Shown piece after piece: positions 3,001-54,479 of a DNA stretch of 64,000 bases. Both the position numbers and the translations under genes were made by a program. The notes under the pieces were generated by a model, which was given only the letters and a program-made list of their open reading frames with translations, did no database searches and was not told the origin of the DNA. Source of the stretch: Blasia pusilla (lineage: Eukaryota); NCBI GenBank assembly GCA_050084515.1, contig CM114271.1, positions 29,574,001 through 29,638,000 on the forward strand, given 5' to 3'. How positions within the stretch are numbered: the stretch's first letter is position 1; each line of letters opens with the position of its first letter.

Positions 3001-3354
3001 GTCGAATCACAGGTGCAGTGATCGAGCGACGGCCAGGAGAGATGGCGACCTTAGCAGCATTTAGCAGTGCCAGCATTTGGCCTAGTGATTTGATTGAGGG
3101 ACATGTAGAGGATACTCCCATTCATAACATTTCTATGCAAAGGAGTGTCATGGTAGCCGCATCAGTCCGTGGAAGAGAGGTGCCGCTTTGGGGCTCAACT
3201 GAGGAGCTTCGACGCTTAGCCACTGAGCATGTACAGACTGCGTGGAGCAAGACGTTTGCACCAGAGTATCACGAGTCAGAGGAACCCCAAGTAGGTAGGA
3301 GTGATGCTATGGCCCCTTTGGACACCACCCCAATTGTGTGGTGCATCCCAGAGA

Positions 3355-3945
3355 AGGGTATTCGGGTGTTGGATCTCTTTGGAGGGATCAACACTGGGTT
3401 CGCTGCTATTTTGTAGGCTAGAGTGGGCGTGCAATAGTTCCTATATGTGGAGATTGATGACATTGCGAGGCGCGCTTCACTTCACCATATAGCGCAGTTA
3501 CGCCTCCATTTCCTCCACTTGTTGTATGCGTTCACCATTCAGGGTTACCAGAGATCCCTGCCGAGGGACATTTCATTGTTGGGGCCGTAGGACTTGGAGC
3601 GGGTAGGGAAAATAGACTTGGTCATTACTGGTTGGCCATGTCAGGGCCAATCGAGTGCTGGACAGGGTAGCGGATTAGCTGACTCTCGGTCCAGGTTGTT
3701 TTGGGAGATGATGCGGATCTTGCAGCACTTGCAGAAGTATCAATCTCGTCCTCCAGCATACATTCTCGAGAATGTACCGATTTTGGGCGATTCGAGGTCC
3801 CGTGTGGTGACAAGTGCACATCAAGTGCGCGCATGGATCGGCCCGGCAGTTTTGTTGGATGCGACGAGTGTGGGTTCACGAGCACATCGCCCGTGTCTTT
3901 GGTGGACCAAATTGGTACCACACGAGATGTTGCGGAGGGCACATG
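3355..3945 (+). pseudogene. Cytosine-5 DNA methyltransferase domain (motifs I-VIII) inside pol, copy 1
   Basis: IRVLDLFGGINTG (motif I), IDLVITGWPCQGQSSAG (motif IV, catalytic PC intact), YILENV (VI), RAHRPCLWW (VIII). In-frame TAG stops, then a deletion joins it to the RT at ~3948. Confidence 0.9.
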
Positions 3946-5953
3946 AAGTCTGATAGGTATGCCATGCCCACCCTTGAGGAGATCTTTGATGAGATTGGGC
4001 ATGCAAAGGTCTTCAGTTCATTGGATTTTCGAGCCATCTCCAACTGGCTATCAGATTGGAGGACAGGCAGAAGACGACATTTTGGGGCATCTATCCTCAG
4101 GGGAAGGATTTTTTGTAACAGCAGCCGTTCTTACCTTTTGGGTTAAAGAATGCCCCGGCTAAGTTTTAGAGGGTCATGGATAGGATCTTGGAAAGTCTGG
4201 AGTTTGCTAGGTGTTATATTGATGACATCGTAGTCTTTAGCGCCACGGTTGAGGAGCATGAGCGACATCTAGAAGAGGTGTTTCGACGATTGCTGTTACA
4301 TCGCCTGAAGCTACATCCAGCCAAGTGCAAGTGCAAGTTCTTCTACAATCAGATTGAGTACTTGGGTCATACGATATACCCTTGGTGTGCAATAGACGAA
4401 GGTAGAGGCTATTTCATACATTCCACGCCCTACAGATGTGAGTCGAGTTCGTGCATTCATGGGATTGGTGAACTTCTATCGACGGTACGTCAAGGGTTTC
4501 AGTTCGATTGCAAAGCCGCTAACCTTGTTGACCAATGTAGATCAGGAGTGGCACTGGGGGGATGAGCAGGAGAGAGCATTTCAGATGCTCAAGGACAGAT
4601 TGACGTCCGCGCCCATATTGAGGAGACCGATTAGGGGGCGTCCTTTCCAGTTGCATACCGATTGGACCATGCTGGGGCTTGGAGCTGTGCTCACCCAGCA
4701 TGACGATGATGGTAGAGAGTTTGTGGTGGCTTACACTAGTCGCTCGAACAACGCTGTAGAGGCAAAGTATAGCTCATATGAGGGTGAGAGCTTGGTTGGA
4801 GTGTGGATTGTCGCACATTTTAGATGTCATCTATTTGGCAATCCCTTTACCATCATTAATGATCATCAGCCACTTAAGTAGTTGATGGAGTCCGACAAGC
4901 TTATAGGGAAGCTTGCGAGATGGGCTCTTTTGTTGCAGGAGTATGACTTCTAGATGGTGCATAGACCTAGGATGCTCAACCAGGATGCATATTGTTTGAG
5001 CCGTAATCCATGCCCGAGTCAGCGAGATGCGACTAGAGCTCGTTGGCATGTTGAGAGTGATGAGGAGTTGGTACCAGGATGGCATGTGTCAGCCTATTTG
5101 GGCTTGTTGGCTATGAAGAGCTAGATTTTTGAGACTTCGATGGCAAGGTCTGATAGAGAGTCCTTAGATCTAGAGGCCCGTAAGAAGACAACAGGTGGCC
5201 AAGACATTCTCGTGGGAGGGCACACATGTGCTACGAGTGTGGGAGGATAGTAGAGTGCATGTAGTGCCTCATCCTTAGTAGAGAGTACGTTTGGTGTGTC
5301 ATGCCCACGAGGAGTTGGGTCAATGTGGAGTGAAATGGACGTAGAGCTTGCTCCAGATTCAGTATTGGTGGCGAGGCATGCAGACTGACGTTTAACAGTT
5401 TGTTGCCAGATGCGTGGTGTATGATTGAGTTTGAGCATCGTTCAATGCTTTGAATCCATAGTTGCATCCACTTTCGATCATGGGTTTAGGTTATAGGTGG
5501 AGTTTGGATTTTGCACGACCTTTGCCTTTGACGGAGCGCCATAGTCGTTATGTGTTGGTGATGGTCAAGCACTTCTCTAAGTTGACGATACAGTTGATCT
5601 GAGCTTAGCAATAGTTCTTGCAGGCTTGCGGTGTATGTTATGTGGTTCTGCTCGTGGTGCAGCCACTATGCTAGTCTATGATGGGTGTTCGAGAGGATGG
5701 CATATGGCATGTTTGACGCCACTTCTCACTAGGGTTCCTCAGAGACAATAGATGTGTCCCACATGTACATAGAGTAGGTAGTTCTACACTCCGACTTGTG
5801 TCTGTGACATGGATGACAAGAAGGCGAATAACGATCGGACCACATGAGCACACGGCCTTCTTGCTCTTAGCGTTCGAGAGATGTATGTAATGTTAGGTAG
5901 GGATAGATGACTATCTGCAGTTAGAGGGATCTAACCATCTTCTAGGGGGGCGA

Positions 5954-6707
5954 TTGGAGATATTTAGGTACTTCTTGTCTCGTTGTTTGGATGCCATGGG
6001 TTAGCATGGGATCGTGCGTGTTTGTGTCTGTTCGGTGACAACGATGTATGTTGTGTAGCAATGTGTATGCGCACGACAACTGTCACGTCTTTTAGGATAG
6101 ATCGGTAAGATCTAGTACAGCACCTTCGTGAGTAGTAGAGGATAGGCTCAGTAGGTTGAGGATGACTCGCTAAGGCCCCGGGAAACGTGAGAGAGCAGGT
6201 TTCCCCTTCGTTTCGGCTCATTTGGAGCCATATTGAGGAACTTACTATTTTAGGTAAGTACCATTTTGAGTATAAGATCAACTTTATATTTTTTGTAAGT
6301 GGCCTTTTACCTCCTACATCAGATCAAGAGCCAAGGAGGTGACTTGGGAGCATAGGTTACCATGGAGTGAGCTTGGAAGAGGGAAGGGGTATACCTCAAG
6401 GAGAGAGAGCTTGAGAGCTCATTCTCTTGGCATGAGGCGGCGGAACTATGGTGTTGCTTGCCTTGTGTGTGTAGCCCAAGCCTCTCATTAGGAGAGTGGG
6501 TTTGGTTTGACATTGAGAGAGACATGTGAGAATGCACACATTTGAGAGCCATGGTATTTAGAGAGATTTCATCTTATTTCTTGGAGATATTTTGGTACTT
6601 CTTGTCTCGTTGTTTGGATGCCATGAGTTAGCATGGGATCGTGAGTGTTTGTGTGTGTGTTCGGTGACAACGATGTATATTGTGTAGCAATGTGTATGCG
6701 CACGATA
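5954..6707 (+). repeat. 3' split direct repeat B1(5954-6078)-AC-A2(6081-6580)-B2(6581-6707) of copy 1
   Basis: The ~125-bp unit ttggagatatt...gcgcacgaca occurs twice, flanking a ~500-bp unit starting tgtcacg. Preceded by purine tract tagggggg. Same layout as 50867-51630. Confidence 0.9.
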
Positions 6708-20600: not shown

Positions 20601-23600
20601 CAATCTCCTCTTCCTACTCTCTGATCACTCTGCAGCAGGACAAGAGCCTCAGGAGTCCTCACCAAAACTGTGAAGCTCTCTAAACAGAGACATTATATAC
20701 ATGAGGGTGAGCACTTCTGGCCCTTAGATCTTCTTGAACAGATCCATACCTAAATAATAGATGGTGGCTAACCCTAACTCGAGAATTGCTCTAATTCAAT
20801 TACCCTAAAAAGATAGAGGAACACTAAGTTATCTCTAGCTAACTAAATTAGTATCCAATTAAGTTAGTATCTGACTAACTACTTTTAGGCATGATTAAAC
20901 TAGATATTAACAAATTTCAACACAGACATGGCTCACCATTGAGCACAAACAATCTCCATCAGCATACTAGACAAAACAACATGCCTTCCAGTGAGGCTCT
21001 AGCAAGCACTGACAGCAATTAGTCTCAATCTCCTCTTCCTACTCTCTGATCACTCTGCAGCAGGACAGTCCTTATATTGACATGAGACATTATATACATG
21101 AGGGTGAGCACTTCTGGCCCTTGGATCTTCTTGAACAGATCCATACCCTAAATAACAGATGGTGGCTAGCCTTAACTCGAGAATTGCCCTAATTCAAGGT
21201 TACCCTAAAAAGATAGAGGAACACTAAGTTATCTCTAGCTAACTAAATTAGTATCCAACTAAGTTAGTATTTGACTAACTACTTTTAGGGCATGACTAAA
21301 CTAGATATTAACAAATTTCAACTTCGGTGGGTGTGTTGCAGGCATATACGAGATGTTCATGGTTGTGTTGAACATGTTTTTGGTTCTCTCAAAGAAAAAA
21401 CTAGTGAAAAAATCATATTTGGTGATTTCCAAGCGCTTTGTAGCCGCTTTCTCAGAGAAGTGGAGAGAAATGCTGCTACCAAACTTTCAGATTTGGAGGA
21501 TGAAGGTGCCAGAATAAGAATCAGCTGTACAATGAGGCTTGTGGACAGCTTAGTTTACAAATGCCTTTCATGGGCAATCACTTTCACCTCTCTAGTGGTG
21601 GCACTTTTAGACAGAAACGTACGCATCCTCTTTTCATTTTTCTTCCTATTTTCCAATTCGAGAGATGAGTTGGACAACCTCTTTTGCACAGGGCGAGGTG
21701 TGTGATCATTTGTGGTGCTTGATCCCTCAATTTTCATTCTTAAGGGTTTTCCTATCGTTTTGATGTGCATCCCTTTTTCAATTCAGTAGGCAAATTGGAA
21801 GACAGAAATCTTAACTAGGTCAGAGTTAAGTATGTCAGGTTGTAAACTTTGGGAATGCATCACTTCTTTTGTTGTCCTGAACTGACGTCTGGATAAAATA
21901 TCAAGTCATAGAGAACCAAGGTAAGGAGTTCTGTTGATTCAGAGAAGGCTGTGAGGAAACACTCATGAATAGTTGACCAAATGACATGTGGAGTAGCTGC
22001 GTTTTTCGGGTATTATGTGATCTGGTGGAGGGCCTATCTTTTGCTGTTCTATTTCTTTTTTGTTGGTCCCTTGTTCCCTGCTCTCCAAGGTCATCAAAGT
22101 TAATTCTCGTCTGCTTTGACTGTTCTGCAGATTAGGGATGGTGAATCTACTACAACCTCAGCTATCTCCCTAACTGTACTCACAAATATGCAGTATGTTT
22201 TTGGTACAGTTCCAAGACTTAACATTGCTGTGCAGGCATCTACAGATGGATTCGACTAGGGTAGAAAATGAGCAGGATTATGCCTTTTGTCTGCTAAGTG
22301 GTGATGTAACTGCAAAACTGTCATAGCTTGCGAATTTTCCATGGGTGCTTTGCTAATTTGTAGGAATTTCTGTATTTCAGGATGGTTCTTCTTGGCGGAT
22401 TTGCTCTTGAAGCTACATGTGAGAGGTCGAGAGTTTTGGTCCAGCAAATTGAATTGTTTCGACTTACTCTTCATTGTGATCATCTTTTCATGGGAAGTAT
22501 CAACTATATGGTGTCCAGATCATCTTCAATGGTATGTTAAACCTTCCCTCTGGTGGCATACCCATCTATCCATCTCAACCTTTGTATGTACCTTCTGGGT
22601 GGACATCCTGGTGTTGTGTTATCACAAGCACCCTAGGAACTTTATGCTTGTCAAGAGGAGATGGGATTTCTTTCCCAGACATCTAAATACCAGCTTTTGT
22701 GGCATACTCACAATGTTTGCAGAAAAAATATGATCCATTGTGTGCAGTCTTGGAAGTGGTTGTTCTACCTCTCCTCTTTAAAGGACACTTGAGTAGTTTC
22801 GCCAAAGCTGAAAGGACATTCTATACTCAGTACCTTTTATGTCACGAAAACTAATGCATTCAATCTAATCAAGAGAAGTACTCTTCTTCCAATAGACCTT
22901 GATAGTTGAAAGGTCTGAGCTGGTCACATACCTGAAAAGTCTGATGGAATTCCTCTAGGAAATCTCACAAGACTCGATACGTCATTAAACTTCTGTCTGA
23001 ATTCCATGGTAGTCACAGGACAATCCAAGATGGGCAATTTTAACGTAGATGAAGCTTTCCTCCTGGCACTAGCCAAGCTTACACAGGGACAAGTGATTTC
23101 CTATTGTGATTGCTATAACTGTTTAACAGAGTTCAGTTAGTCAATAATTACTTTTTGCAATTTCTGCATTATTTTTGGTCGCTCCTATTTGTCAGAAGTA
23201 ATAGGAGTGATATCTCACAAAAATTATGGTTTCATAACTGACCTCTGCTGACCAGTGACAGCTCAATGATACTCTGTTTAAAATTGGCAGGCTTTCATTC
23301 ATCATCATCCTACGATCAATCAGAGTCATGGTTCTTCTCACTCACTTCACCCGGTGGCGCATCATGGCTGACTTGCTGATTCGCATGGTCCCAGTGACAG
23401 CACCAATCCTGGGAATTCAATATTGCGTGTGCTCTTTGTTTTCTGTTGTGGGTGTGCACCTTTTTGGTGGACTAGTTTTTGTCGGGAATCCTGTGATAGA
23501 AGGCACAGAGTATGCTACATCAGGTCTGTGGGTGTACAATTTTAATGACTTCGGAGCTGCCATGGTGACTTCTTTCAACTTATGTGTGGTGAACAATTGG

Positions 23601-31300: not shown

Positions 31301-32953
31301 CCTGCTAGGAGGGAGGTGACATGTGTGTACAGGTCACCCATGGAGGTGCCCAAGGGGGTATACTCGGATGAGGCTCATTTGGAGCTCATCTCCTTAGGAT
31401 TGCAGACCCTTGTTGGGATCCGTCATACAGTGCGGCTCGCATGTATTGAGCATGGATTCTCTCTTGAAGACTGGGCTAGGAGTGATCAATAAGGAGGTCA
31501 CACATTTTGGGAATCCTTGTGTATACTTTCTCTTGTTGTTACACCAGTGTGTATCTGAATCATGAGTATGGTTGTTTGGATGAAGCACGGTTGATTGCAG
31601 ATTTCATCAGAGTTTACAATGCGTATTCAACTTTATATTGGGGTTATCTTGTTGTTAGTGTAGAGAGGTTAGGATTCATAGCTAGATGGATCTTAGACAT
31701 TTGTGTGCATGACAACCGATGTATGTTGGCAACCATGTGTATTCACATGAAAAATGTGAGACGCAAACGAGGCTAGTGTTTCGAGTGTTTCATGCATTTA
31801 TGGTCGTGTCTGGGAAACCAAAACCAAATGAAAACTCAAACTTGATAGGAGTCGAGTCTCAGATGAGACGTGGCCAAGGGGTGAGAACCACACTTGGGAC
31901 GTGGCTAGCGTTCGGGGTTTTTGATTGTATTTTAGACCATAAATTTTAGTCACAAGATGAATTGGAGACAAATAATATGGCTTCAAAAAGCTTATGCGGA
32001 TCCGGTTTCAACGCACCAAAGATCTTGGCAAATGCTCATGCAGAGGCTGAGATATTGGCCGAAATAATTATACAGGGAGTCGGGTTGAGGGCCAAAAAGA
32101 GGGGCCCGGATGTCTCTTCCTCAAAGGTAGGGGGAGGGCGGAGATCCCTAGAAGTACTACTGAGTAGTAAGGTCTCCAAGGGTGCTTGGGACTTGAACCC
32201 CACTTTGGGCGCCGTGGGGCGACTTAAGGGCAAGGAATGGATAGGGAGTTTTGGCGTTGGGATTCAAAACCCGAACCAAATCCAATAGAGTAGATTTCAG
32301 AGTTCCTTTTGGATTCCAACCAATGACTCATATTTTTGGGTCTTGGTTTGGGAGCTCGTGCAAGGTCCATTGGACAGTTGGGACTGCTAGGTGCGCAAAT
32401 GCCGTTTTAGGTGCTTGGACTAACCAAAAATTCTGTCCCAAGTCTGGGAAGACTTGCTTGTGTTGGGAAGCTAGGAATGAGGGAAGGTTGAGTTTGATGA
32501 GGTGCCGACTTGAGAACTCGGTGGGTTGGATGGAAGAATCATCCAGACTAGACTACATGAGTGTGTTTGGGTGTAGATCGGCGATGAGAGTGTGTCTTGC
32601 TGAACGTACGCTTCCGCAATAATAGAGATTGACATTCGAGGGGAGTATGCGCACGACACAAGATGCTTGGCACACACTATAAACCAATATCAATTGCACT
32701 AGAAAGAAGAAGAGGCCATGAGCAAAAATACCTATGAGAGCACTGCATTATGTGTACATGGACACTTGCAAGAAAAAAAAATTCACATAGTATCTCCTAA
32801 GACACCCTATGTCTATTTGTCTTAGAGAGAAATCTATGACCGAAAAGATGAGCACGGTTTAATGCTATTCCGATTGAGTCTAAACTAGACCAGGTACGGG
32901 GTGTGCAGTGGAAGAGACCGTTGTGAAGGCATAGCCTTTGGCTGTGGCGGACT

Positions 32954-40500: not shown

Positions 40501-43500
40501 AAAAATGTGCCAAAGGTTACCCAAATTCGTTTACAAGCATGACGATATAGACCAAAGATAATTATCCTATCTATCAAAAGTACGCAATCTTTTTATGGCA
40601 AGTTCATTAGTAGGTGATGTAATGTATACATGTAATATCCTTCCTTATTCTTACTCCTTTTGTAGATTGGATGATGGGAAGAAGGTCATGAAGCATGATC
40701 AATCTTTGGACAACTGATGGATTGTGCCATATAATCCTCTATTCTGTACACTCTTTGATTGCCACATAAATTTAAAGATCACGAACACCATTTTTGACGT
40801 AAAATACCTCTATAAGTATGTATATAAGAGATCTGATGTAGTATCATTTAAGGTATCAAAAGCAGGAAATTATCCAAGAACAATGGAGACTATTGATGAA
40901 ACATCATTATATCTTGATGCAAAGTAAGTTCAATCATTTTCCTTCAATTTGGATAAGCTTTATTGTCTTCCATGGAATATATTCCTATTTAATGCTATTT
41001 ATGACATCTTTTTTTTATCACTGTTGTGCACATACATCTCTTCTTCAGAGGCATGTTGGCGACTTTTCAAATTCAAGTTGCATTTAGAACATCCCAGTAC
41101 TATGAGATTGGTTGTTCATTTACCAAATGCACAATTAATTTATTTTACTTATATTGATGTCCTAGAGGAAATCTTACAAAAAAATTATAAATACTACTCT
41201 TACACAATGGTTTGCAGCTAATTGTGATGATCCTACTGCTCAAAAATATCTCTATATTGAATTCCCTTCATACTGTAGTTGGAGGAATAAGAATTGGCTT
41301 CCTAGAGTACAAAAAAGAAACCATTTTGGTCTTCCTATTGGTCGCTTATACCTTACTTATCTAGGTAAGAGCTTCCTATTCTCTCTCATGGCATTGTAGA
41401 CATAATGTTGTATTTCATATATGTAGTTATCTCTATATAATCAAGTTCGGATTTTGATGCACTACCATGCTTTGTAATAATTGAAGGTGCATGCCATTGG
41501 TTGAGATTTCTTTTTCATCATGTTCGTGGGATGACTTTGTAAGAATACTTAAGAACTATGGATGGAGTATTCTGTCCAAAATTTAAGGAGGATACTATTC
41601 AACTGGGAATTCTTGAAGATGATAGGGAAATTTTCTATTACTTCAAAGAAGCTTATGAAATCCGAATTGGCTCCTCACGTTGTCAACTCTTTGCCATTAT
41701 TTTGGAATACAAAGCAACTGCCCAACCTGAATTGCTTTGGAGTGAGCTTTTGGTTGAGTTGATAGATGATCTCTTGTACCAAAAATGTGAGGTAATTCTC
41801 ACTCTTCCTCCATTTAAAAATTTCTATCCTGCAAACTTAACACTTATATTTTTACTAATGTAAATGTTGCACTCCAGACCACAAGAATTCCGGATCTTCC
41901 CCTACATGCTTTCATCATCAATAACGCATTTGTCACGAATGTTAGGATAGATCGGTGAGATCTAGCAGAGCATCTGCACGAGTAGTGGAGGACATACCCA
42001 GGAGGTCGAGGATGACCTATTGAGGCCCCGGGAAACCTGAGAGAGTAGGTTTCCCCTTCATTTCGGCTCATTTGGAGCCATATAGAGAAACTTACTATTT
42101 TGGGTAAGTTTCCATATTGGGGATAGTTGAATTTCCACTTTGGGAAGTGGCCCTCGACCCGCTACACCAGGTCAAGAGCCAAGGAGGTGACCTGCGAGCA
42201 TAGGTTACTGTTGAGAGGGCTTGGGAGAGGGAAGGGGGTGTACCTCCAAGAGAGAGAGCTTGAGAGCTCATTCTCTCTTTGTTGAACTTCTTGGCATAAG
42301 GCGGCGGAGCTATGGTCCCTTGCCTTGTGAGTGTTACCCAAGCCTCTCATTAGGAGAGTGGGTTTGGTTTGACATGAGAGAGAGTGCACATCTTTGAGAG
42401 CTGTGGTGTGAGATGGTGTAGAGAGAGATTGGATCTTACTTTACAAAGAGAAAATGAGAGAATGAGAGAGTGAGAAAGTGAGAGAGCTTCATGGGGGAGC
42501 TCGCTGGTCACTCGCTATTTTTGCAGGTTGGGGACCGTATTCCCCGTTCAGCGGCTGATGGGAGTGCTCACCAGAGCAAGGGCTGCTTTGATTGTTCTTT
42601 GCATTTGCTGATTTTTGGTGTGGAAGAGTGGCGCGCGGAAGCGCTACCCAATTTCTGATAGGGATTGATTATGGGGGCGGGTTGCCCCATGCCGGTGCTC
42701 TCGGGAGCACCATGCACCTTGAAAATTTATATTTTTACAGGTTTTACATTTTCGTTGGGAGAAATCAGCGCGGAAGCGCTGCCAAATTTTGTGTAGGAGA
42801 AAGAGACATTGGGCTTTACGATAGTCCCCGTCAGTTTTTGCTAGAATGTTTGATTCTAAATATTTTTTGACGGTGTCGTAGATGGTGAATTTCTACACGC
42901 TGTACTACAAAGAATGTGCAATTTGGAGTGCGAGGAAAAAGTTATGGTCAATCTTGCAAAATTGCCATTGCTAGGCGTTTTCTAGGGTTAAATTGTTCAA
43001 ACCCTAAACCAGCCGCCACTGTCATAGTCACTGTCAACGGTCTGACCATCATAGTCACTATCAAGGGTCAACCATCACCATCAACGACCAACCGTCACTG
43101 TCAATGGTCAACCATCATTGTCACTGGTCGGCCATCACCATCAACGGTCAACCGTTACCGTCAACGGTCCACTGTCCGTTGTCCACCCTTTGGTTGCCAT
43201 TGCCGCCATTACGGAGTGGAGGGTCTTCCACGATGTTCGTTGATTCTCTGACTTGCGTCACCACCACGTACTTTGTTTTGGACGCCATCGTCATCGCAGT
43301 GTCGTCATCAACCAGTGATGGCAACCATAACCAGCAACCGATTATGGTGTTTGAGTTTTGATTTCATGATGCTATGTTGTGATTGGTAGCCCCTCGACGA
43401 CGATTGAGTAAGGTGCCGTGACGCCCATAGCCGCAACGGACCGCCGATTGCTGCGCCGTGCCGCTCGTGGCCGCACCGCACTATCTCACTCGTGGAACCG

Positions 43501-46324
43501 TTCCTTCACTAAGGAGCACAGCGTGTGAATTGCTGAATGAGGAGGGTATGCCGGCGAGTGTCGCACCCCATTCCCGAGTGCCGTGTTGTTTTTACCCGTT
43601 CCGTGCCGCCGAGTGTCGCACCCCATTCCCGAGTGCCGTGCTGTTTTTACCCGTTCCGTGCCGCCAGTGCCGCACCGGACCGCTTGATCGGCACCGCACA
43701 TCAAGGAGATTGAGCAGCGTGAGTACAAGAGGTGTACGACTTGCTGATTGGAGGAGTTGTCTTCACAATCGAGTTGGGGTCGAGATTTGCAGTTGCTGAG
43801 GAGCGACATCGACATATGTTCAGAATACCCATTCTGGTCCTTTACCGTGCACGTGTGAGGGATTATGGGATTTGGGTAGTTTATTTGGGGATATTGGGTT
43901 GTGTGGATGCTAAGAGCATCATTCATGTATGTGGTTTAGGGGACATAGACCTGTGTGGGATGTCCGGAGTTGAGGGTAGGTTGTCGATGAGATGATAGCC
44001 TGGTCGATTTGCCGCACCACGCCGCGTGTTGCCGCACGTTACACGTCTCGGGGAGGGAGAGTATAGATCGAGTGCCGTATGTTTGGGATGAGAGATTGAG
44101 GGATGACTTGCGAGGTTGAGAGTGATCGGGTGAGAGGGGCACGAGGGTCATCACGACGTCCGTTTGGGACTTTGAGAGGCGAGGTGGTGAACCAGAGAGT
44201 AGCTCTAGAGGTTTTACACGGAGTGGCACGAGGTTTCGAGGGTCTCCACGTGAGGGACCACCTCAACCTCCTTCTATGTCATTGTCAAATGAGGGGGAGG
44301 ATGTACAGGAGTTTGTGGGCACATTGCCACACATTGTGAGTGATCCTACCAATTGGGCATACGAGATGGATGACCGGGATAGAGGACCGCGTAGGTTTTC
44401 AGGTGTAGTAGGCACGATTTCATAACAGAGTTTAGGAGTTGGTGCGACTCCCAGCGGGCCAGGAACTTTAGAGAGTTCAACCCGTTTATAGCATGGAATG
44501 GTATGTTCCATCATTTAGAGGGGGCGCCCATGGACGATTACCATGAGTTCTCCCACAGATATGCCCAAGAGATTGAGGCATGGTGACTCTACTATGACCC
44601 ACACTATGTGTCATGGACGGAGCCGTTCCTAGATGAGGAGGAGGAGTCAGGAGAGGCTACTTCCTCTTCCACTAGTGATGTTTCAGGAGGGGTCACTCGC
44701 ACTAGAGCAGTTGCACCATCTAGTTGGGTCTGTCCTAGATTCAACCCCGAGGTTGAGTTCTTCGCTGAGTTGAGGGCTAGCTACCAAGGGGTACGGACGG
44801 AGAAGTTGCGGAGCATCCACGACTTCCAGAGGCGCCCAGGTGAGAGTTTATGTGAGGCTTACACTCGCTTGCGTCGTTTGATCAACGTCACTAAGGGGTT
44901 GACGGAGGCTCAGGCTATCTAGTCATGGTACGCGATGCTGGACCGGAACCCTACGGACACGGGTGCGCGAGGGAGTGCTTCTTATGAACATCTCCCCTAC
45001 GTTGAGAGATGTTTTTAGGACCGTCGAGAACATTGAGCGCAACCTAGCGGAGGAGAGCGTAACCACCATAGGTTCTAGGTGAGAGCAGTCACGATTGGCT
45101 GCACCATCTATGCAGCAACGTGGACTCCAAGATAGGTTGACTGCGAGACCACGAGCTCAGGGAGGATACCGTGAGGTTGTGCCACAGAGACCTGCGCCTT
45201 CACATGCGGCTCAGCAGCAGCCACCTACTATTACTTGTTGGTCATGTCGTGGAGCCCATCATAAGCATGATTGCACTCGTCAAGGTTATGGACGTGTGCC
45301 TCAGCATGGAGGAGGAGATGGTGCTACACCAGGAGGTTATCAGTGTGACTATTGTCAAAGGTATGGTCATACACATGCCAGATATTTCAGTTTACATCCT
45401 GAGTTACATTCGGACTGAGGGCTAGAGAGGGCACCATAGAGAGTAGCCGGACTAGGTGGGCCTACAGATCGTACACCAGGTGGTCCCGTTGGGGGACGAG
45501 GAGCTGGAGTTTCCCGATAGGGTGGTGGAGCTGCCCGTGGAGGAGGTAGAGTACTACCACCTAGATGCGCCGAGGGAGACGCTGGACGTGAGGTTCGGAT
45601 GGCTGCTCAGATATAGCAACTATATGAGCAGATTACTGCTATGGCATTGAGGTTACCCGATGTCGGATCCGTGGCATCGAATCATATGGAGCAGCCAGAG
45701 ATATGGAGGATCCTAGTTGGATGTGCGGGGTTGCCTAGATGGAGGCCGTCGTAGTTGTGACGCGTGGAGCAGCCGTAGAGTTGGATCCACAGCGAGGGAA
45801 AGCAAGAAAATAGACTAGGCTTCCTCAGTCTTTCACGTTGTCCGAAGCAATGAGGACCCCATCGATGGGTCCTCATCAAAGGTCCTGAAGAGTTGGTGAT
45901 GTTGTTGATATGCAGGCACGGAGGGCGATGGGAGAAGCGATTGCGACGACCCCTATTGTTTGACTCACAAGTACAGTGATCGAGCATTGGCCAAGAGAGG
46001 TGGTGACCTTAGCAGCATTTAGCAGTGCCATCATTTGGCTTAGTGATTTGATTGAGGGGCATGTCCATGTAGAGGATACTCCCATTCTTGACATTTCTAT
46101 GGAGAGGAGTGTTATGGTAGCCGCATCATTCCGTGGAGGAGAGGTGTCGTTGTGGGGCTCAACTGAAGAGCTTCGACGATTGGCAGATGAGCAAGTGCAG
46201 ACCACGTGGAGCGAGGCGTTTGCACTCCCTACTACCTCGGGTCTGAGGAACCCGAGGGAGCAGGGAGTGCTACGATGACACCCTTGGATACCACACCCAT
46301 TGTGTGGTGTATCCCGTAGGAGGG

Positions 46325-47336
46325 ATTTTGAGTGTTAGATCTCTTTGGAGGGATTAGCATCGGGTTAGCTGCTATTTTGCAAGCAAGAGTGCGAGTGCAA
46401 CAGTACCTGTATGTAGAGAGTGATGATTTTGTTGCAAGGTGCGTCTCACTACAACATGTGGCGCAATTACGCCTACGTTTTCCTGACTTATTGTCTGCGT
46501 CCGCAGTACAGGGGTACTAGAGTTTCTTACCGAGGGATATTTCGTTGCTGGGGGTGTAGGACTTTGAGCGGGTAGGGACCATTGATTTGGTCATTGTCGG
46601 TTGGACATGTTAGGGCCAATCGAGTGCTGGACAAGGCAGCGGGTTGGCTGACACTCGGTCTAGGTTGTTTTGGGAGATGTTCAGGGTCTTACGACAGTTG
46701 TAGGAGCACCAGTCTCGTTCTCCAGCCTACATTCTAGAGAATGTGCCGATCTTAGGAGACTCTAGGTCACGGGTGATGACAAGTGCTCATCTAGTGCGTG
46801 CCTGTATTGGCCCAGTAGTGTTCTTGGATGCGGTGAGTGTAGGTTCTAGAGCACATCGCCTTCGTCTATGGTGGACCAACTTGGCGTCTATAGACCAACT
46901 TGGCGTCTAACCCCATACGGTGTTACGGAGGGCGTTTGCGAGAAGAGAGCACCCCTCCCATTTGTTAGTGGATTCCATTATGGATCCAGGTCGTCGATCA
47001 CAAGCAGTTAGGCACAATGATCGACCACCGTTGACTGTGGTCAACAGGGTAGGCAAGCCACAGGCAGCCTTGCCCACGCTTGTAAGTTTTCCCGCTTCCT
47101 ATGCATACAAGGAGGTTGGTCTTGGCTTGGTTTGGGATGACCACGTTCTGCGGTTGATGGAGCCCAATGCCGACAAGAGAGAGCGAGCTATGGGATTTCT
47201 CACAGGAGTGACGGTAGTATTGTCAGTGTTAGGGGCATCACAACGCCATGTCTTGGGTCAAGCGATGGACCTAAACTACTTGACATGGATCCTCAGCTTG
47301 GGAGTGGCTGAGCAGTGCCGTATGAGATTGCGATAG
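46325..47336 (+). pseudogene. Full-length cytosine-5 DNA methyltransferase domain (motifs I-X) inside pol, copy 2
   Basis: VLDLFGGISIG (I), YLYVE (II), IDLVIVGWTC*GQSSAG (IV, decayed PCQ), YILENV (VI), RAHRLRLWW (VIII), variable TRD region, RERAMGF (IX), LGQAMD (X). Confidence 0.9.
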
Positions 47337-50300
47337 ATCACAGCGGTTGCATTAGTGAGCCCCATGCCTACCAAGACGGTGGAGGAAGTGGCTGGGGGCG
47401 AGACCCGAGGAGATCTACACACCAAGGGAGATCATGAGAGACATCCTTGGACTTCTTGGGATGTTTTGCAGGTACGCCAGGAGATGATAGCCCAACATTG
47501 AGCGTGGTTCCGGGCACTACACGTGGAGGAGATCAAAGTTTGCAGTTGGCTGTTGGAGAGCGGCTGAGTGTTGTTGTTCGAGACAAAGTTGCACCATAGC
47601 AACCATCGATACCCGTGTCGGAGAGTCCTACCGTAGTCACGATAGAGACTTGGGAGCTAGATATGGGCCCTAAATTGACATGAGGAGTGCGGCGTCGGAT
47701 ACATCAGTTCCTCAGGAGTTATAAGAGCTGCTTTGCGTTTAGCATGGAGGATTTGGGTATGCTGACGGGATCAGGGATCCGCATTGAGTTGTCGAGTGAT
47801 ATGCTGATCTTCCGACGACCCTACAGATATAGTGATATGGAGAGGGCTCTAATTCAGAGTAGGAGCCAGGACTTGGTCGGAGCAGGACTAGTGGAGATGT
47901 TGCATGGGGAGTATGCACCTACACTGTCATGCCCGCCAAGAAGGATGTGCATGGCAATTGGACGGATAGGCAAATGTGTCGGGATTATTGACGTATCTAT
48001 CGGCAGACAAAGTCTGATAGGTATGCGATGCCCACCCCTGAGGAGATCTTTGATGCGATTGGTCACGTAAAGGTCTTAAGTTCATTGGATTTAGGAGCCG
48101 GATACCATCAGCTGCCTATCAGATTGGAGGACAGGCAGAAGACGACATTTTGGGGCATCCATCCTCACGGGAAGGATTGTTTGTTCTAGTGGTGGTTCTT
48201 ACTATTTGGGTTAAAGAACGCCCCGACTGAGTTTCAGAGGGTCATGGATAGGATCTTGGCTGGTCTGGACTTTGCAAGGTGTTATATTGATGACATCGTA
48301 GTCTTTAGCGCCACGGTAGAGGAGCATGAGCGACATCTAGAGGAGGTGTTTCGAGGATTGCAATTACATGGGCTGAAGCTACATCCAGACAAGTGCAAGT
48401 TCTTCTACGACCAGATTGATTACTTGGATCATACGATATACCCATAGGGCCTTGGTTTCAGCAGATGAAGGTAGAGGCTATCTCACGCATCCCACGCCCT
48501 ACAGATGTGAGCCGTGTTCACACATTCATGGGATTGGCAAACTTCTATCGGCGATACGTCAAGGGGTTCAGTTCGATTGCGAAGCCGCTAACCTTGCTGA
48601 CCAAGGTGGATCATGAGTGGCACTGGGGGGATGAGTAGGAGCAAGCATTTCAATTGCTCAAGGAGAGGTTGACGTCCGCGCCCATCTTGAGGAGACCGAT
48701 CAGGGGGCGTCCTTTCCAATTGCACACAGATTGGAGCATGTTGGGGCTTGGAGCGGTGCTTACCCATCATGATGATGAGGGTAGAGAGTTCGTGGTGGCT
48801 TACGCTAGCCGCTCGAACAACGCTCTAGAGGCGAAGTACAACTCGTATGAGGGTGAGTGCTTGGCTGCAATGTGGGCCGTCGCGCATTTTAGGTGCTACT
48901 TATTCGGCAACCCTTTTACCATGATCACTGATCATCAACCACTGAAGTGGTTGATGGAGTCCGACAAGCTTATAGGGAAGCTTGCGAGATGGGCTCTATT
49001 GTTGCAGGAGTATGATTTTCAGGTGGTATATAGACATGGGACGCTCAACCAGGATACATATGGGTTGAGTCGTAACCCATGCTCGAGTTAGCTAGATGCG
49101 ACTGGAGCTCGATGGCATGCAGAGAGTGATGAGGAGTCAGTGCCAAGATGGCACGCGTCAGCCTATTTAGGCATATTGGCTATGGAGAGCCAGAGTGTGG
49201 AGACTTCGATGGCGAAGTCTAGTGGAGAGTCCTTGGATCTTGAGGCCAGTGAGGAGATGACAGGTGGCCGAGATATTCATGATGATGGAATAGTCTTGGA
49301 GTACCTTCGTACTGGCAGCGTTGCGAGCACCGTGGATGCTAGAGAACGAGATCGGATCCTACAGCGGGCCAGATAGTCCCGTTGGGAGGGGACACATGTT
49401 TTGAGGGTTTGGGAGGATGGTAGAGTACGCGTAGTGCCACATCCTTTGCAGAGAGCACGACTAGTGTAGCATGCCCATGAGGAGTTGGGTCACTTTGGGA
49501 TGAAGGGGACGTACAACTTGCTCTATTGGTGGCGAGGCATGCAGACTGACGTTCAGCAGTTTGTTGCCAGGTGCATGATGTGTGATCAGGTCCGAGCATT
49601 GTTCAATGGTCCGACTCCACAGTTGCATCCATTACCGATCATCGGCTTAGGATATAGATGGAGTTTGGATTTTGCAGGACCTTTGCCTTTGACGGAGCGT
49701 CACAGTCGTTATGTGTTGCTGATGGTCGAGCACTTCTTGAAGTGGATCGAGTTGGTTGCATTGCCTGAAAAAGCAAGTGAGGTAGTAGCTTATGCCTTCC
49801 TTGACCGAGTGCTGAGTCATTATGGCGCATCGGCTGAGGTGTTGACAGACCAGGGTACAGAGTTTCGCGATGAGTTCCAAGCCTTGTGTGATCAAGCGCT
49901 GATCGACCACCGCACGACTTCGCGAGATTATCTCGAGGCGGATGGATTAGCGGAGAGAGTTGTGCAGACGATGAAGAGGGGTTTATGCAAGTATGGCTTG
50001 CAGAGATTTCACCTAGGAGATTGGGACCTCCGGTTTCCGTGGTTGGTGATGGGATACAGATTCAGCAGGCATGCATCCTTAGCGTCTTTTTCACCGTACT
50101 TGCTACTTTATCGTCAAGAGCCCGATTTACTTGCGGCCATTCGTCGAGATGCTGGTCAGGTGCTGGACCTTGATGACCCAGATGTATGGATGCGAGCATG
50201 TTCTCAGAGGGCTGAGTTGTCTCGGAGAGTGATGCCCATGACATTCGAGAACTTGGCGATTGCGCAGCATCGGGATACGTTGAGGTATGTGACTATTCGG

Positions 50301-50866
50301 GGTGGTGGTTATCGACCAACTATCCCGAGGTTTCATCAGGGAGATTATGTGTACTTACAGCAGACGGCACCGACAACGTTGGATGTGACTGCAGGGCGCA
50401 CTATCCTGAGAGTGTGTGATATTTTGCCATCCGATGTTCTCTTGCTGGAGGGACGTGATGGTATGGTTTGGAAGGACCATGTGCGTTATTGTGCGCCATG
50501 TCACCTTCCTAACATTGATGGTACAATAGATCCGAGCTCAGCAGTAGTTCCTATAGGCTTTCGTTGTATGTTGTGTGGTTCTGCTTGTGGTACGGCCACG
50601 ATGCTAGTCTTTGATGGATGTTCGAGAGGTTGGCATATGGCATGTTTGACGCCACCTCTCACTAGGGGTTCCTCGGGGATGATGGATGTGTCCCAGTTGT
50701 ACATAGAGGAGATACTAGGTAGGTTTCAATTATGACTTTTTTCTGTGACATGGATGATAGGAAGGCGACTAACAATGGGGCCACATGAGCACCCGGCATT
50801 TCTGCTCTTAGCGTCCTAGATGGCTATCTGGAGTTAGAGGGACCTAACCACCAGCTAGGGGGGCGA

Positions 50867-51630
50867 TTGGAGATATTTTGGTACTTCTCACCTCTGTGGA
50901 TGGATGCCATGAGTTAGCATGGGATCATGTGTGTTTGTGTATGTGTTCGATGATAGCGATGTATGTTGTGTAGCGATGTGTATGCGCACGACAACTGTCA
51001 CGATTGTTAGGATAGATCGGTGGGATCTAGTGGAGCGTCTGCATGAGTAGTGGAGGACAGGCCCAAGAGGTCGAGGATGATCTGTTGAGGCCCCGGGAAA
51101 CATGAGAGAGCAGGTTTCCCCTTCGTTTCGGCTCATTTGGAGCCATATAGAGAAACTTACTATTTTGGGTAAGTTTCCATATTAGGGATAATTGAATTTC
51201 CATTTTGGGAAGTGGCCCTTGCCCCGCTACAACAAGTCAAGAGCCATGGAGGTGACCTGCAAGAATAGATTACCGTTGAGAGGGCTTGGGAGAGGGAAGG
51301 GGGTATACCTCCAAGAGAGAGAGCTTGAGAGCTCATTCTCTCTTTGTTGAACTTCTTGGCATAAGGCGGCGGAGTTATGGTCCCTTGTCTTGTGAGTGTA
51401 ACCCAGGCCTCTCATTAGGAGAGTGGGTTTGGTTTGACATGAGAGAGAGTGTTTGAGAGCTATGGTGTGAGATGGTGTAGAGAGAGATTGGATCTTCCTT
51501 TAATTGGAGATATTTTGGTACTTCTCGCCTCTGTGTATGGATGCCATGAGTTAGCATGGGATCGTGTATGTTTGTGTGTGTGTTCGATGACAGCGATGTA
51601 TGTTGTGTAGCGATGTGTATGCGCAAGACT
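50867..51630 (+). repeat. 3' split direct repeat B1(50867-50993)-AC-A2(50996-51503)-B2(51504-51630); A1 at 41931-42443
   Basis: A2 matches the 5' terminus A1. B is duplicated only at the 3' end and is absent after A1. Confidence 0.92.
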
Positions 51631-54479
51631 CATTATTGGAAGTGCTCTAATTTTTGCAAGATCAGGGAAAGTCATTATCAGATTTCTCGAATATGCCCCA
51701 AGCAAACTTTTGAGCAATTCATGTCCTAAGCAAACTTTTGATCAATCGCTTTTGCACTTAGAAGAAGAAGAGTTATTGCATGTCATTGATCAACATGGGC
51801 TCCAAAATCGTGTGCAATTAGGAGAATCATCTTTGAATGAAGGACAACGTAAGATTTGGGATGCTGTACATGATCATGATGAACTTCATAGTATTTCCCT
51901 TGATGCTCTACCATCTGCCAAACTATTCTTCATTGATGACCCAAGTGGAAGGGGAATGAAATTCTTATATAATCTTCTTCTCGCAAGTATGAGAAATAGT
52001 GGGGGTATAGCTTTGGTTGTTGCATCATCTGGGATGGCCGCTCTTTTACTAGATGGAAGCCGTACGACACATTCATGCTTCAAGATTCCTTTCACGCTTG
52101 ATAAGAGCTCTACTTGCAAGTAGGTCTCACTAATTAAATCATCAATAAGAGGGAAATGAAGCCTCTACCTTGAATTTTCAAGTCCTAATTTATTTCATTC
52201 TTACATAATATGTAGATTTCCAGTTTCCAGTCTTGTAGCACACTTAATTCAATGACTTTTGCTTATTATATGGGATGAATCATCCATGACTCATCGTCAC
52301 GCATTTGAGGTAGTTAATCATACCTTACAAGATATTATGGGAATGGTCTGTGAGAAATTTAGGCATATACCATTTGGGGGGAAGTTGATAATATTTGGTG
52401 GTGATTTCCGCCAAGTCTTACCTAGTTGTTCGTCATGGGGACAGTCCAAGAATGATCCAAGCCACTTTAGAGAGATCAATGTTATGGTCTCATATAAGGG
52501 TTAGGAAGTTAAGTACAAATATGAGAGTTCAAAGGTTGGAAGGTCATATGTGCATTCACCAACAAGCTTTGCTGATTGATTATTGGAAGTAGGAGAAAGT
52601 CACATACTGTAGCAATTACTCTTGGAAGATAATTTTATATAATTGCCATAGGATATGGTCACAAAAAATAAGAAAAAAGGCGATCTTATTGATACTATTT
52701 AATATGGAAACAATCCTCAACTCTTTCATGATATCAAATCTTTGAGAGACACAACTAGTTTGACACTACAAAATAGAGATGTTTATGAGATTAACGATGA
52801 AGTCATGTCTCGATTCCATAGACATCTCATAAGAATTTTCCATTCATCTAAGTAAGTTATGTCATTCCGTATGATGTATGTTCATGACTACATCTAATCC
52901 ATATTATATATGTTATCTAGAGGAGCATACTTACCTTAATATTGACTAAGTCCCAAATGAGGGTATAAATCATGTCTATTCTGAAAGAATTCTTGAATAC
53001 ATGCTTGCCTTGTAGCCTACCTCCATATCGTTTGTGTTAGAAAATAGATACATCCATTTTGCTCTTACAAAACATGGATGGCTCCAATGGACAAGCAAAT
53101 GGTACACAAATGGTAATTCAAGGATTTATGCAACATGCGATTGATGGAGAAATTATCACAGGAAAGAACATCGAAGATCGTGTTCTTACTCCACGTATTC
53201 CATCAATCGCATCTCATTTCGGCATACCTCTTGATCTACGTAGAGTTAAATTCCCTATTCGCCATGCATTGGCCATAATCATAAATAAGTCTCAAGGTGA
53301 GACTTTACAAAAAGTTGGGATTTACTTACCTACTACTATTTTTTTCTCATGGCTAGTTGTATGTAGCTTTATCTAGAGTTCGGCTTAGGAAAGCAATACA
53401 TATTACACTTGTAAATAAAGAGTTTAACTTCATCCATAATGTAGTGTATAGAGAGATCTTATAATGAAATTTAAAAAAAACATAAATTTTCCATATTTTT
53501 TCATGAATAAAAAACCCGTGCTTTGTATGGGCATCTTACTAGTCTCTTTATAAACTACACTAGGTGTGTAATGATATTCACTAGATCTTTCTCTCTTTCT
53601 CCTTTTCAAATTATAGTAATTCAAATCATATAAACGAGGTTTGTAAAATAGTTTCTTTTTAACGTGACGACCAGGTGTTTAAGAAGCTCCTTACAAAAAA
53701 AGAAATCTTACCTTAACAATATAACTGAAATTATCTTAAAAAAAAGGAAAGGATATACTATTAAAATAAAATTACCTCGCAGAGATGAAACGTTTGAAAT
53801 CATGCTCTCCCATTTTTGGACACGTATCAAAATATAATTTGAAAATATGAATTGATTTGATCAATTGTGTATACTAAATTTCATTTTATAGTAGTAAGGA
53901 TCCATGAGGGAGGTTTCAATATCACTCTCCTTACCCATCTCTCTATATGACCTAAAAATTATCTTTGACGGAATAGTGACGTGTATCAAAAAGAGGAAAG
54001 ACTAAATAAAAATTATCCTTCAATTAGTATATAAATTAATTAATGTAAACTAGTGTAAATCATTGTAATGTATGAGTTTAAATCATCTCCACTAATTAAT
54101 TCTCAAAGTTTTAAAACTAATTTCGAACAATCCTATTAATTAAAATGAATCATCTTATTTGATTGATTATGCCAAGTGTCGAAAGGAGAAATGTTTGCAA
54201 AATGATAGGGCATTGTCCAATAATTGTATAGATGCATGAACGTGGAGGCTATAGGCACGTGAATCCCAACTTGTAAGCCATGTCCCATATTTACCATTTA
54301 AAAAAAATAGGTAGTCCCCGGTAGGAACTAATTTACTCTTTGACTTACTTACAATATATATCCACTTTATATCCACTGAAAAGAGGACAAAGAAAGGTAA
54401 TAACATCTCAAAAGAGGAGTAAAAAAATGCATAATGGAATGCAAAAAGAAAATGGCAACTAGCCAAGGCAAACATCGAT

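What the first reader, a model, noticed from the sequence alone, without database searches (positions are those of the whole stretch)
50854..51634. Split direct repeats (A...B-A-B) instead of LTRs on a DDE-integrase element, with a built-in end-to-end junction
Seen: the element starts with A only (tgtcacg..., 41931-42443) and ends B-A-B. The B1/A2 boundary reads ...gcacgaCA-AC-TGtcacg..., which is the element's right end joined to its left end by 2 nt. Copy 1 has the same arrangement (5954-6707). No TGG primer-binding site follows A1, but a G-rich tract precedes B1. Known: A-B-A-B split direct repeats typify tyrosine-recombinase retroelements (PAT/Ngaro/TOC1 type), whereas DDE-integrase Gypsy elements normally have two full LTRs and a tRNA PBS. 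Inference: this family may replicate through a tRNA-independent, possibly circular intermediate that integrase opens at the CA-AC-TG junction.
Basis: partly seen in the sequence, partly recalled or inferred. Interest (0 to 1): 0.88.

Follow-up and report, generated by a model that had tools for sequence, protein, structure and literature searches.

The report
Gypsy-DNMT3 retrotransposon with permuted LTRs
This is a dead copy of a very abundant plant-type retrotransposon that carries a normal retroviral-type integrase but sits in the genome with "split" end repeats (A...B-A-B), a layout already noted once in print for related elements but never explained.

Summary
Copy 2 reads A1 (41931-42443), interior, G-rich tract, B1, CA-AC-TG, A2, B2 (ends 51630). 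Copy 1 has the same 3' end.

It is not a local rearrangement:
- Raw reads suggest roughly 1000 related copies, many ending at B's ...GACA.
- Six independent metagenome loci of related families show the same B-NN-A-NN-B.
- 7 of 7 independent 5' ends are A-only.
- 5 of 6 complete elements have exact 4-bp target-site duplications.

The pol is Gypsy-type: RT, RNase H, DDE integrase with a PHD finger. That makes it a relative of the published Gypsy-DNMT3 elements of Klebsormidium, whose figure legend says the repeats are arranged as in DIRS. The layout on a DDE element is therefore not new.

What I add:
- A conserved polypurine tract abuts B1.
- A segment inside A is complementary to the sequence just after A1, a Tf1-like self-primer, in two families.

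This implies, but does not show, a cDNA with LTR = B+A. The genomic copy would be its circular permutation, opened by integrase at the internal CA-NN-TG site.

A second form, A-interior-B, also exists. Troyka is unrelated.

The parts
41927..41930 (+). Left copy of the 4-bp target-site duplication (CATT)
   Evidence: matches 51631-51634
41931..42443 (+). A1, the left terminal repeat. It starts TGTCACG and stands alone, with no B after it.
   Evidence: 92.4% to A2
42267..42282 (+). Segment inside A (CTCATTCTCTCTTTGT) complementary to the sequence just after A1. Proposed self-primer and start of R.
   Evidence: 16 nt, 1 mismatch; 0 of 300 shuffles. The equivalent 22-nt pairing in L007 closes the MFE and centroid fold.
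42443..42458 (+). Proposed primer-binding site for the self-primer (ACAAAGAGAAAATGAG), at the A1/interior boundary
46212..47309 (+). Broken DNMT3-like cytosine methyltransferase domain (6 in-frame stops in 46332-47336)
   Evidence: PF00145, 30.6 bits, cut-off 22; best PDB matches DNMT3A
47989..48435 (+). Reverse transcriptase (RVT_1), in a different frame from RNase H and integrase in this copy
48624..49013 (+). RNase H (RT_RNaseH)
49449..49922 (+). Integrase: H2C2 zinc-binding domain plus DDE core. D67, D127 and E162 of P0001 are present.
50565..50666 (+). PHD finger at the integrase C-terminus. Weak in this copy; clear in relatives.
50855..50866 (+). Polypurine tract CTAGGGGGGCGA, directly 5' of B1
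   Evidence: same motif in 23 related loci and in copy 1 at 5942-5953
50866..50993 (+). B1, ending ...GCGCACGACA, which is the sequence of the element's right terminus
   Evidence: (1186 reads run from 50993 into unrelated sequence)
50994..50995 (+). 2-nt spacer (AC) of the CA-NN-TG joint
   Evidence: always 2 nt; GT, GC, AT or AC in relatives
50996..51502 (+). A2
51503..51630 (+). B2, the right terminal repeat. Its end is mutated to ...GCGCAAGACT.
51631..51634 (+). Right copy of the 4-bp target-site duplication (CATT)
5942..6707 (+). Copy 1: polypurine tract, B, CA-AC-TG, A, B, then an unrelated flank

Best explanation
Identity (about 0.9). The region is the 3' end of a dead copy of a high-copy Ty3/Gypsy-type retrotransposon family of the Gypsy-DNMT3 kind. 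Its domain order is DNMT3-like, RT, RNase H, DDE integrase, PHD finger. Its integrated form is TG-A, primer site, interior, polypurine tract, B, NN, A, NN, B-CA, flanked by a 4-bp target duplication.

Mechanism (about 0.45; inferred, not shown).
1. Reverse transcription is self-primed, as in Tf1. A segment about 175-185 nt before the end of A pairs with the sequence just after A1.
2. Plus-strand synthesis starts at the conserved polypurine tract that abuts B1.
3. Ordinary two-jump reverse transcription would then give a cDNA whose LTR is B-NN-A, that is B-A-interior-B-A.
4. The integrase does not use these cDNA ends. It uses the TGTCA.../...GACA pair that lies head-to-tail inside each LTR as CA-NN-TG.
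5. Joining the cDNA ends makes the A2/B2 joint, as in a 2-LTR circle. Opening one internal CA-NN-TG site yields A-interior-B-A-B.
6. A one-LTR circle, or cuts at both sites, yields the shorter A-interior-B form that is also found.
For: Family-wide layout:
- element depth is 900-3300 against about 2 in the left flank. 1186 DNA reads leave B at 50993 into sequence with only 0.32 agreement, meaning many different flanks.
- six independent metagenome loci show B-NN-A-NN-B (L004, L007, L008=L011, L009=L018, L016, L020), plus both window copies.
- 7 of 7 independent 5' ends are flank|TGTCA(A), followed by interior and not B.
- Exact 4-bp TSDs occur in 5 of 6 complete elements: AAGG, TCTC, TGTT, TACA, CATT. 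L002 matches 3 of 4.

Enzymes:
- DDE integrase.
- No Phage_integrase hit in six frames read through stops.

Primer sites:
- The polypurine tract is conserved directly 5' of B in 23 loci and 2 window copies, although B's own 5' part differs between families.
- Self-complementarity is 16 nt (window) and 22 nt (L007), each with 1 mismatch and 0 of 300 shuffles. L006 and L002 have 14 nt (1 of 300 each).
- The paired sequences differ between the two families while pairing is kept.
- The L007 fold has z = -4.36, and the long-range helix appears in both MFE and centroid.
- The distance from primer segment to the end of A is similar in both families (177 vs about 180 nt), although A is 513 vs 342 nt.

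A2/B2 joint:
- In 5 of 6 loci of the L007 family it reads CATTTTC-A(A/G)-TTGTGG. That is the last base before the pairing region, abutted to the first bases after the polypurine tract.
- The sixth locus (L008=L011) has a 21-nt insertion ending CGAG, like the end of the tract.

Expression: sense-strand reads cross the B-end/NN/A-start joint (loose ends anchored in 50955-51000).
Against: - No circle, cDNA end or transcript end was observed. One search gave no usable transcript start or end.
- In the window copy the MFE fold pairs the proposed primer with another purine run. Only the centroid keeps part of the proposed pairing, and z is only -2.24.
- 3 of 7 5' ends show no significant complementarity: L008 (278 of 300 shuffles), L066 (56 of 300), L010 (15 of 300). 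These may be decayed copies.
- Covariation rests on only two families.
- The A2/B2 joint is nearly invariant. Copying from a template would explain that as well as precise end-joining would.
- Twelve independent 3' ends are A-interior-B without A2-B2. Recombination between B1 and B2 after insertion would explain them without any circle.
- The joints table is cut (15 shown, 255 not). The absence of a B-to-interior joint is therefore weak evidence.
Confidence: 0.5

Rival explanations
1. DIRS/PAT-type replication with a swapped enzyme. The element replicates as proposed for tyrosine-recombinase elements with split direct repeats. The internal B1-A2 segment serves as a bridge or template to rebuild the ends of a cDNA made from a transcript running from A1 into B2. 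A DDE integrase, not a recombinase, then inserts the product.
For: - The repeat layout is identical to the A-coding-B-A-B layout described for DIRS-type elements (PMC5890265, Fig. 1e and 4c legends).
- The A2/B2 joint is nearly invariant within a family, as expected if it is copied from RNA.
- RNA reads cover B1, A2 and beyond.
Against: - B starts exactly at a conserved polypurine tract, and A ends exactly at a self-complementary primer site. These are the marks of ordinary strong-stop synthesis, and they predict an LTR of B+A.
- RNA depth falls over the last part of A2 and B2: 20-34 against 82-131 in the preceding bin.
- The RT-RH-IN proteins are Gypsy-type.
Confidence: 0.2
2. Linear cDNA cut internally. 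Integrase nicks the two internal CA sites of a linear B-A-interior-B-A cDNA and inserts A-interior-B as the normal product. The A-interior-B-A-B form arises rarely by another route, for example template switching at the end of plus-strand synthesis, yet it is the only form that can found new copies.
For: - A-interior-B ends outnumber B-A-B ends among independent metagenome loci, 12 to 6.
- They carry exact 4-bp TSDs in L006 and L010.
- The same form recurs at the same locus in separate assemblies: L005/L006, L012/L014, L002/L029.
Against: - Both window copies are the long form.
- The short form lacks a downstream U3-R and should be unable to replicate, which is hard to square with about 1000 copies.
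- Recombination between B1 and B2 after insertion gives the same short form.
Confidence: 0.2
3. Ordinary LTR element misread. A is the true LTR, and the two B copies are an incidental duplication or local rearrangement next to the 3' LTR.
For: A1 and A2 alone look like a normal LTR pair beginning with TG. LTR-finding software would call them so.
Against: - The TSDs lie outside B2, not outside A2.
- Elements end at B's GACA in more than 20 independent loci and in many reads.
- The arrangement recurs in at least three sequence-distinct families: the window family, the L007 type and the L004 type. L026 also shows the B/A joint.
- The polypurine tract abuts B1, not A2.
Confidence: 0.03

Closest known systems
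KnitGypsy-Dnmt3 / 'Gypsy-DNMT3' of streptophytes (de Mendoza et al. 2018, PMC5890265; passages and section 9 read; supplements not seen)
   Same: - Gypsy-type pol with a DNMT3-like domain in the polyprotein.
- Repeats arranged A-coding-B-A-B, 'the same as that of a DIRS retrotransposon'.
- Integrase relatives at 57% identity carry PF00145.
   Different: - Different host and family; I did not compare sequences with K. nitens itself.
- The copy here is dead.
- In what I read, the paper gives no termini, TSD, primer sites or replication model.
DIRS-order elements with split direct repeats (PAT, Ngaro, TOC1 type)
   Same: A1-interior-B1-A2-B2 layout, with an internal joint that equals the right end joined to the left end.
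   Different: - Those encode a tyrosine recombinase. That they make no target duplication is recalled, not from a call.
- This element has a DDE integrase, TG..CA termini, 4-bp TSDs, a polypurine tract and a primer site.
Tf1/sushi-group self-primed Gypsy elements (described in PMC6317226, passages read; details of Tf1 recalled)
   Same: No tRNA primer site. A segment near the start of R is complementary to the sequence directly after the 5' repeat.
   Different: - Tf1/sushi elements have ordinary LTRs and a chromodomain.
- This clade has a PHD finger and permuted repeats.
- Phylogenetic relatedness was not tested.
Circle-junction substrates of DDE enzymes: IS3/IS911-type transposon circles, and cleavage of retroviral 2-LTR junctions by foamy-virus or HIV integrase (recalled, from no call)
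   Same: Two ends abutted head-to-tail with a spacer of a few bases, cut by an rve-type DDE enzyme to release both ends at once.
   Different: - Here the abutted ends lie inside the predicted LTR and are inherited in the RNA.
- Cleavage is inferred only.
PHD-finger Gypsy elements of green algae (REM1; Gypsy-7a_cRei, PMC9940879, passages read)
   Same: - PHD finger in pol.
- The named relatives of the integrase are volvocine and other green algae.
- The Gypsy-7a_cRei figure legend mentions 'LTR subparts' and a left LTR 8 bp shorter than the right.
   Different: - Described there as having LTRs at both ends.
- The REM1 paper was not held.
Troyka (PMC12440569)
   Same: An atypical lineage filed under Gypsy.
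   Different: Defined by CG..CG termini and 3-bp TSDs in animals. This element has TG..CA termini and 4-bp TSDs. No link to split repeats.

Membership tests
Ty3/Gypsy (Metaviridae) LTR retrotransposons | Pol domain order RT - RNase H - DDE integrase | tested here: met
   RVT_1 47989-48435, RT_RNaseH 48624-49013, H2C2+rve 49449-49922. D67, D127 and E162 are invariant in 15 aligned relatives.
Ty3/Gypsy (Metaviridae) LTR retrotransposons | Two complete identical LTRs at the ends of the integrated copy | tested here: not met
   The 5' end is A only and the 3' end is B-A-B: 7 of 7 independent 5' ends, plus six loci and two window copies at the 3' end.
Ty3/Gypsy (Metaviridae) LTR retrotransposons | TG..CA termini and a 4-6 bp target-site duplication | tested here: met
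   Termini TGTCA...GACA. Exact 4-bp TSD in 5 of 6 complete elements.
Ty3/Gypsy (Metaviridae) LTR retrotransposons | tRNA-complementary primer site (TGG...) after the 5' repeat | tested here: not met
   No TGG follows A1. A self-complementary site is there instead. tRNA sets of the hosts were not available.
Gypsy-DNMT3 (KnitGypsy-Dnmt3 type) | DNMT3-like C5 methyltransferase domain within the Gypsy polyprotein | tested here: met
   PF00145 at 30.6 bits (cut-off 22) on 46332-47336 read with X at 6 stops. Best solved-structure matches are DNMT3A/3B. 36 of 80 related loci also match.
Gypsy-DNMT3 (KnitGypsy-Dnmt3 type) | Repeats arranged A-coding-B-A-B | tested here: met
   the published description is.
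Gypsy-DNMT3 (KnitGypsy-Dnmt3 type) | Sequence relatedness to the K. nitens elements themselves | not tested
   No K. nitens sequence was available under its name. Relatedness is inferred only from unnamed DNMT-bearing homologues.
DIRS order (DIRS1, PAT, Ngaro) | Tyrosine recombinase instead of a DDE integrase | tested here: not met
   No Phage_integrase hit in six frames read through stops. A DDE integrase is present.
DIRS order (DIRS1, PAT, Ngaro) | Split direct repeats with an internal end-to-end joint | tested here: met
Tf1/sushi self-priming group | Start of R complementary to the site just after the 5' repeat | tested here: inconclusive
   Significant in 4 of 7 5' ends from two families. 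The fold supports it in L007 but not clearly in the window copy. The transcript start was not mapped.
Troyka | CG..CG termini and 3-bp TSD | tested here: not met
   TG..CA termini and 4-bp TSD; definition from PMC12440569.

The most novel reading that the evidence does not exclude
A whole lineage of Gypsy-type elements (Gypsy-DNMT3, green algae to plants) does not integrate the ends of its cDNA. Its integrase recognises a head-to-tail TGTCA/GACA pair with a 2-nt spacer that lies inside U3. Circular cDNA, the 2-LTR and 1-LTR circles that are dead ends for retroviruses, would then be the productive integration substrate, as with IS3-type bacterial transposon circles. That would explain how the DIRS-like A...B-A-B layout can arise with a DDE enzyme. 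It would also hint that the layout reflects a circle-based life cycle and not the type of recombinase.
Probability: 0.3. Interest if true: 0.8.

Novelty: new member of a known kind. Interest (0 to 1): 0.5.

Why it matters
How elements with split direct repeats rebuild their ends is an old open question, studied so far only in tyrosine-recombinase elements.

This family has the same layout on a conventional integrase. It has readable primer sites, clear target duplications, about a thousand copies and detectable transcripts. The circle-versus-linear question therefore becomes testable with standard mobilome sequencing, RACE and an integrase cleavage assay.

In practice, LTR-finding software will call A as the LTR, miss the TSD and mis-annotate or discard these elements. 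That may be why the clade is absent from the plant Gypsy classification I read (PMC6317226, passages only).

Tried and rejected
- No whole genome is held for the window, so a genome-wide census of copies was impossible.
- Troyka was checked and set aside. A Troyka line in a fern repeat table is only a RepeatMasker label.
- DGLT-A/Skipper of Dictyostelium, which I recalled as having odd LTRs: the paper describes normal LTRs, and a polypyrimidine tract in place of a primer site in Skipper. It was not relevant.
- The REM1 paper was not held.
- Literature searches for a DDE element with split repeats found only the 2018 figure legend and a 2026 preprint that names 'Gypsy-DNMT3'. Supplements were closed.
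- Run search: no RNA holder was listed in the index. RNA raw-read runs of the same species label were laid instead.
- Transcript starts and ends could not be read (table 6 has only 5 weak places). The joints and loose-ends tables are cut (255 and 9046 rows not shown). I could therefore not count B-to-A against B-to-flank reads, or A-to-interior against A-to-B reads.
- Translating the whole interior in one frame failed on stop codons. ORF pieces, and later an X-for-stop code, were used instead.
- No gag or protease was detected in 42444-46200, by Pfam or by comparison with long relatives.
- A candidate TGGTGG... primer site in L007 was dropped because it is not kept in L008.
- Distant relatives (41-47% identity) showed no repeats within their contigs. 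How far the layout extends is therefore unknown.
Full report
**1.

Copy 2 runs from 41931 to 51630. In order it contains:
- A1 (41931-42443, starts TGTCACG), then about 8.4 kb of interior;
- the tract CTAGGGGGGCGA (50855-50866);
- B1 (to 50993, ends GCGCACGACA) and a 2-nt spacer AC;
- A2 (50996-51502) and B2 (to 51630).

These are read. A1/A2 are 92.4% identical over 513 nt, and B1/B2 are 94.5% identical over 127 nt. No B follows A1.

Copy 1 (5942-6707) has the same tract-B-CAAC-TG-A-B arrangement and a different downstream flank. Its 5' end is not recognisable in the window. CATT flanks copy 2 on both sides, if B2's terminal CA is read as mutated to CT.

**2. It is a family property, not a local rearrangement**

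No genome is held, so I laid public reads of the same species label on 41500-52000. About 1% of a WGS run gave these results:
- Depth is about 2 on the left flank and 900-3300 across the element, which suggests roughly 1000 copies at 82% likeness or more.
- 1186 reads align up to 50993 and then run into sequence with only 0.32 agreement, meaning many different flanks. Many copies therefore end at B's GACA.
- 1762 reads diverge upstream of 50955, so only the last ~40 nt of B are conserved across subfamilies.
- Stranded RNA reads, almost all in the orientation expected for sense transcripts, cover the element. They include reads anchored in 50955-51000, so the B-end/NN/A-start joint is transcribed.
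- Their loose ends read like the L007-type family described below.
- Among the 15 joints shown, none links the end of B back to the interior after A1. However, 255 joints are not shown, so this is weak evidence.

**3. Relatives from elsewhere**

The integrase ORF (P0001) has 225 longer homologues:
- 118 of the 120 listed carry a PHD finger, and 16 carry PF00145.
- The few named ones are green algae.

A scan of metagenome contigs with an integrase alignment returned 80 loci at 41-77% identity. Loci with identical flanks count once.

- Long form: the full PPT-B-NN-A-NN-B occurs in six independent loci (L004, L007, L008=L011, L009=L018, L016, L020). L026 shows the B/A joint before its contig ends.
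- Spacer: always 2 nt, reading GT, GC, AT or AC.
- 5' ends: seven independent ones (L002, L006, L007, L008, L010, L066, window copy 2) all read flank|TGTCA (TATCA in L008). In the L007 family, A continues into ACTCAAAGAAC... and not into B.
- Target duplications: of six complete elements, five have exact 4-bp TSDs (AAGG, TCTC, TGTT, TACA, CATT). L002 matches 3 of 4.

A second form, A-interior-B followed directly by flank, occurs at 12 independent 3' ends. It carries exact TSDs in L006 and L010. It recurs at the same locus in separate assemblies, so it is not random assembly collapse.

**4. What the element encodes**

A six-frame Pfam scan with X at stops finds only DNA_methylase, RVT_1, RT_RNaseH, Integrase_H2C2, rve and a weak PHD. 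It finds no tyrosine recombinase, gag or protease.

- The DDE residues are present.
- Region 46212-47309 aligns to the DNMT-bearing part of relatives.
- It passes Pfam's cut-off for PF00145 and matches DNMT3A/B best among solved structures.
- It has 6 in-frame stops, and RT lies in a different frame from RNase H and integrase. The copy is dead.

**5. Prior art**

de Mendoza et al. 2018 (PMC5890265; passages and section 9 read; supplements closed) describe KnitGypsy-Dnmt3 of Klebsormidium nitens. Its Fig. [quoted passage not shown]

A 2026 preprint refers to 'streptophytes (Gypsy-DNMT3)'. Troyka is a different thing.

**6. How it probably works (inferred)**

Two boundaries are informative.

First, the B repeat begins exactly after a polypurine tract. 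That tract is conserved in 23 loci and both window copies, although B's own start differs between families. This marks the plus-strand start.

Second, the A repeat ends exactly where a stretch begins that is complementary to a segment inside A:
- window: 16 nt with 1 mismatch, 0 of 300 shuffles;
- L007: 22 nt with 1 mismatch, 0 of 300 shuffles;
- L006 and L002: 14 nt, 1 of 300 shuffles each;
- L010, L066 and L008: weak or absent.

The paired sequences differ between the two families but stay complementary. The distance to the end of A is about 180 nt in both, although A is 513 vs 342 nt long. In L007 the helix closes both the MFE and the centroid fold (z = -4.36). In the decayed window copy the fold is ambiguous. 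This is the Tf1-type self-priming design; self-priming in plant elements is discussed in PMC6317226.

With these two sites, standard reverse transcription gives a cDNA B-A-interior-B-A. The genomic form A-interior-B-A-B is its circular permutation.

The A2/B2 joint reads as the predicted cDNA ends abutted (CATTTTC-A(A/G)-TTGTGG) in 5 of 6 loci. The sixth carries a 21-nt insertion ending like the polypurine tract. The true integration ends, TGTCAYG and CRYGACA, form a 7-bp inverted pair. They lie head-to-tail inside the predicted LTR.

The simplest route is end-joining of the cDNA followed by integrase cutting at one internal CA-NN-TG site. A one-LTR circle, or cutting at both sites, would give the short form. 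None of these intermediates was observed.

**7. Rivals**

- A DIRS-like bridged replication with a swapped enzyme.
- Internal processing of linear cDNA, with the long form arising rarely.
- A misread ordinary LTR element. This is contradicted by the TSD positions and by recurrence in at least three sequence-distinct families.

**8. Verdict**

The feature is real and conserved in several families, and it is mechanistically unexplained. Its layout on a DDE element is already known, and this element is a member of that known group. The primer sites, TSDs and permutation argument are, as far as my searches show, new detail that makes the mechanism testable.

Noticed in passing
window 46212-47309 (copy 2) and 3366-3941 (copy 1): A DNMT3-like cytosine methyltransferase domain lies upstream of RT in both copies and is broken by stops. 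It ties the family to the published Gypsy-DNMT3 elements.
   Followed up: yes
window 32645-32658: An exact 14-mer GTATGCGCACGACA, the conserved B terminus. It is followed by unrelated sequence, and no recognisable B, A or integrase lies upstream. It may be the end of a diverged or truncated relative.
   Followed up: partly
L006, L010, L002 and nine further 3' ends (L012/L014, L019, L022/L043, L031, L035, L039, L048, L050, L056): A short form A-interior-B, without A2-B2 but with 4-bp TSDs where both ends are visible. It outnumbers the long form among metagenome loci. Whether it arises by recombination or as a primary product is open.
   Followed up: partly
L053, L054, L059, L061, L063, L065, L068-L074, L077, L080: In distant relatives (41-47% integrase identity) the DNMT-like region lies directly upstream of the integrase instead of upstream of RT. 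The domain order differs between subgroups.
   Followed up: no
RNA loose ends at window 50830, 50866, 50955, 51000: The expressed copies in the window's species read like the L007-type family of the metagenome loci (GTTGTGGTACAC... after the polypurine tract; TGACCATA... after TGTCA). That family is therefore present and transcribed in this species as well.
   Followed up: partly
window 17470-21320: Several families of direct repeats with a period of about 400-450 bp and a copy about 2.35 kb upstream (D2, D8, D9, D11, D12). They look like a tandem array unrelated to the element.
   Followed up: no
window 12704-12960: Two 94-nt direct repeats 163 nt apart, 87% identical (D20).
   Followed up: no
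L062 1-123 and 9049-9171: The contig ends are identical over 123 nt, so a distant relative assembled as a circle-like unit. This is probably repeat collapse by the assembler.
   Followed up: no
window 51679-52000: The right flank has DNA depth about 10 against about 2 for the left flank. The element probably inserted into another low-copy repeat.
   Followed up: no
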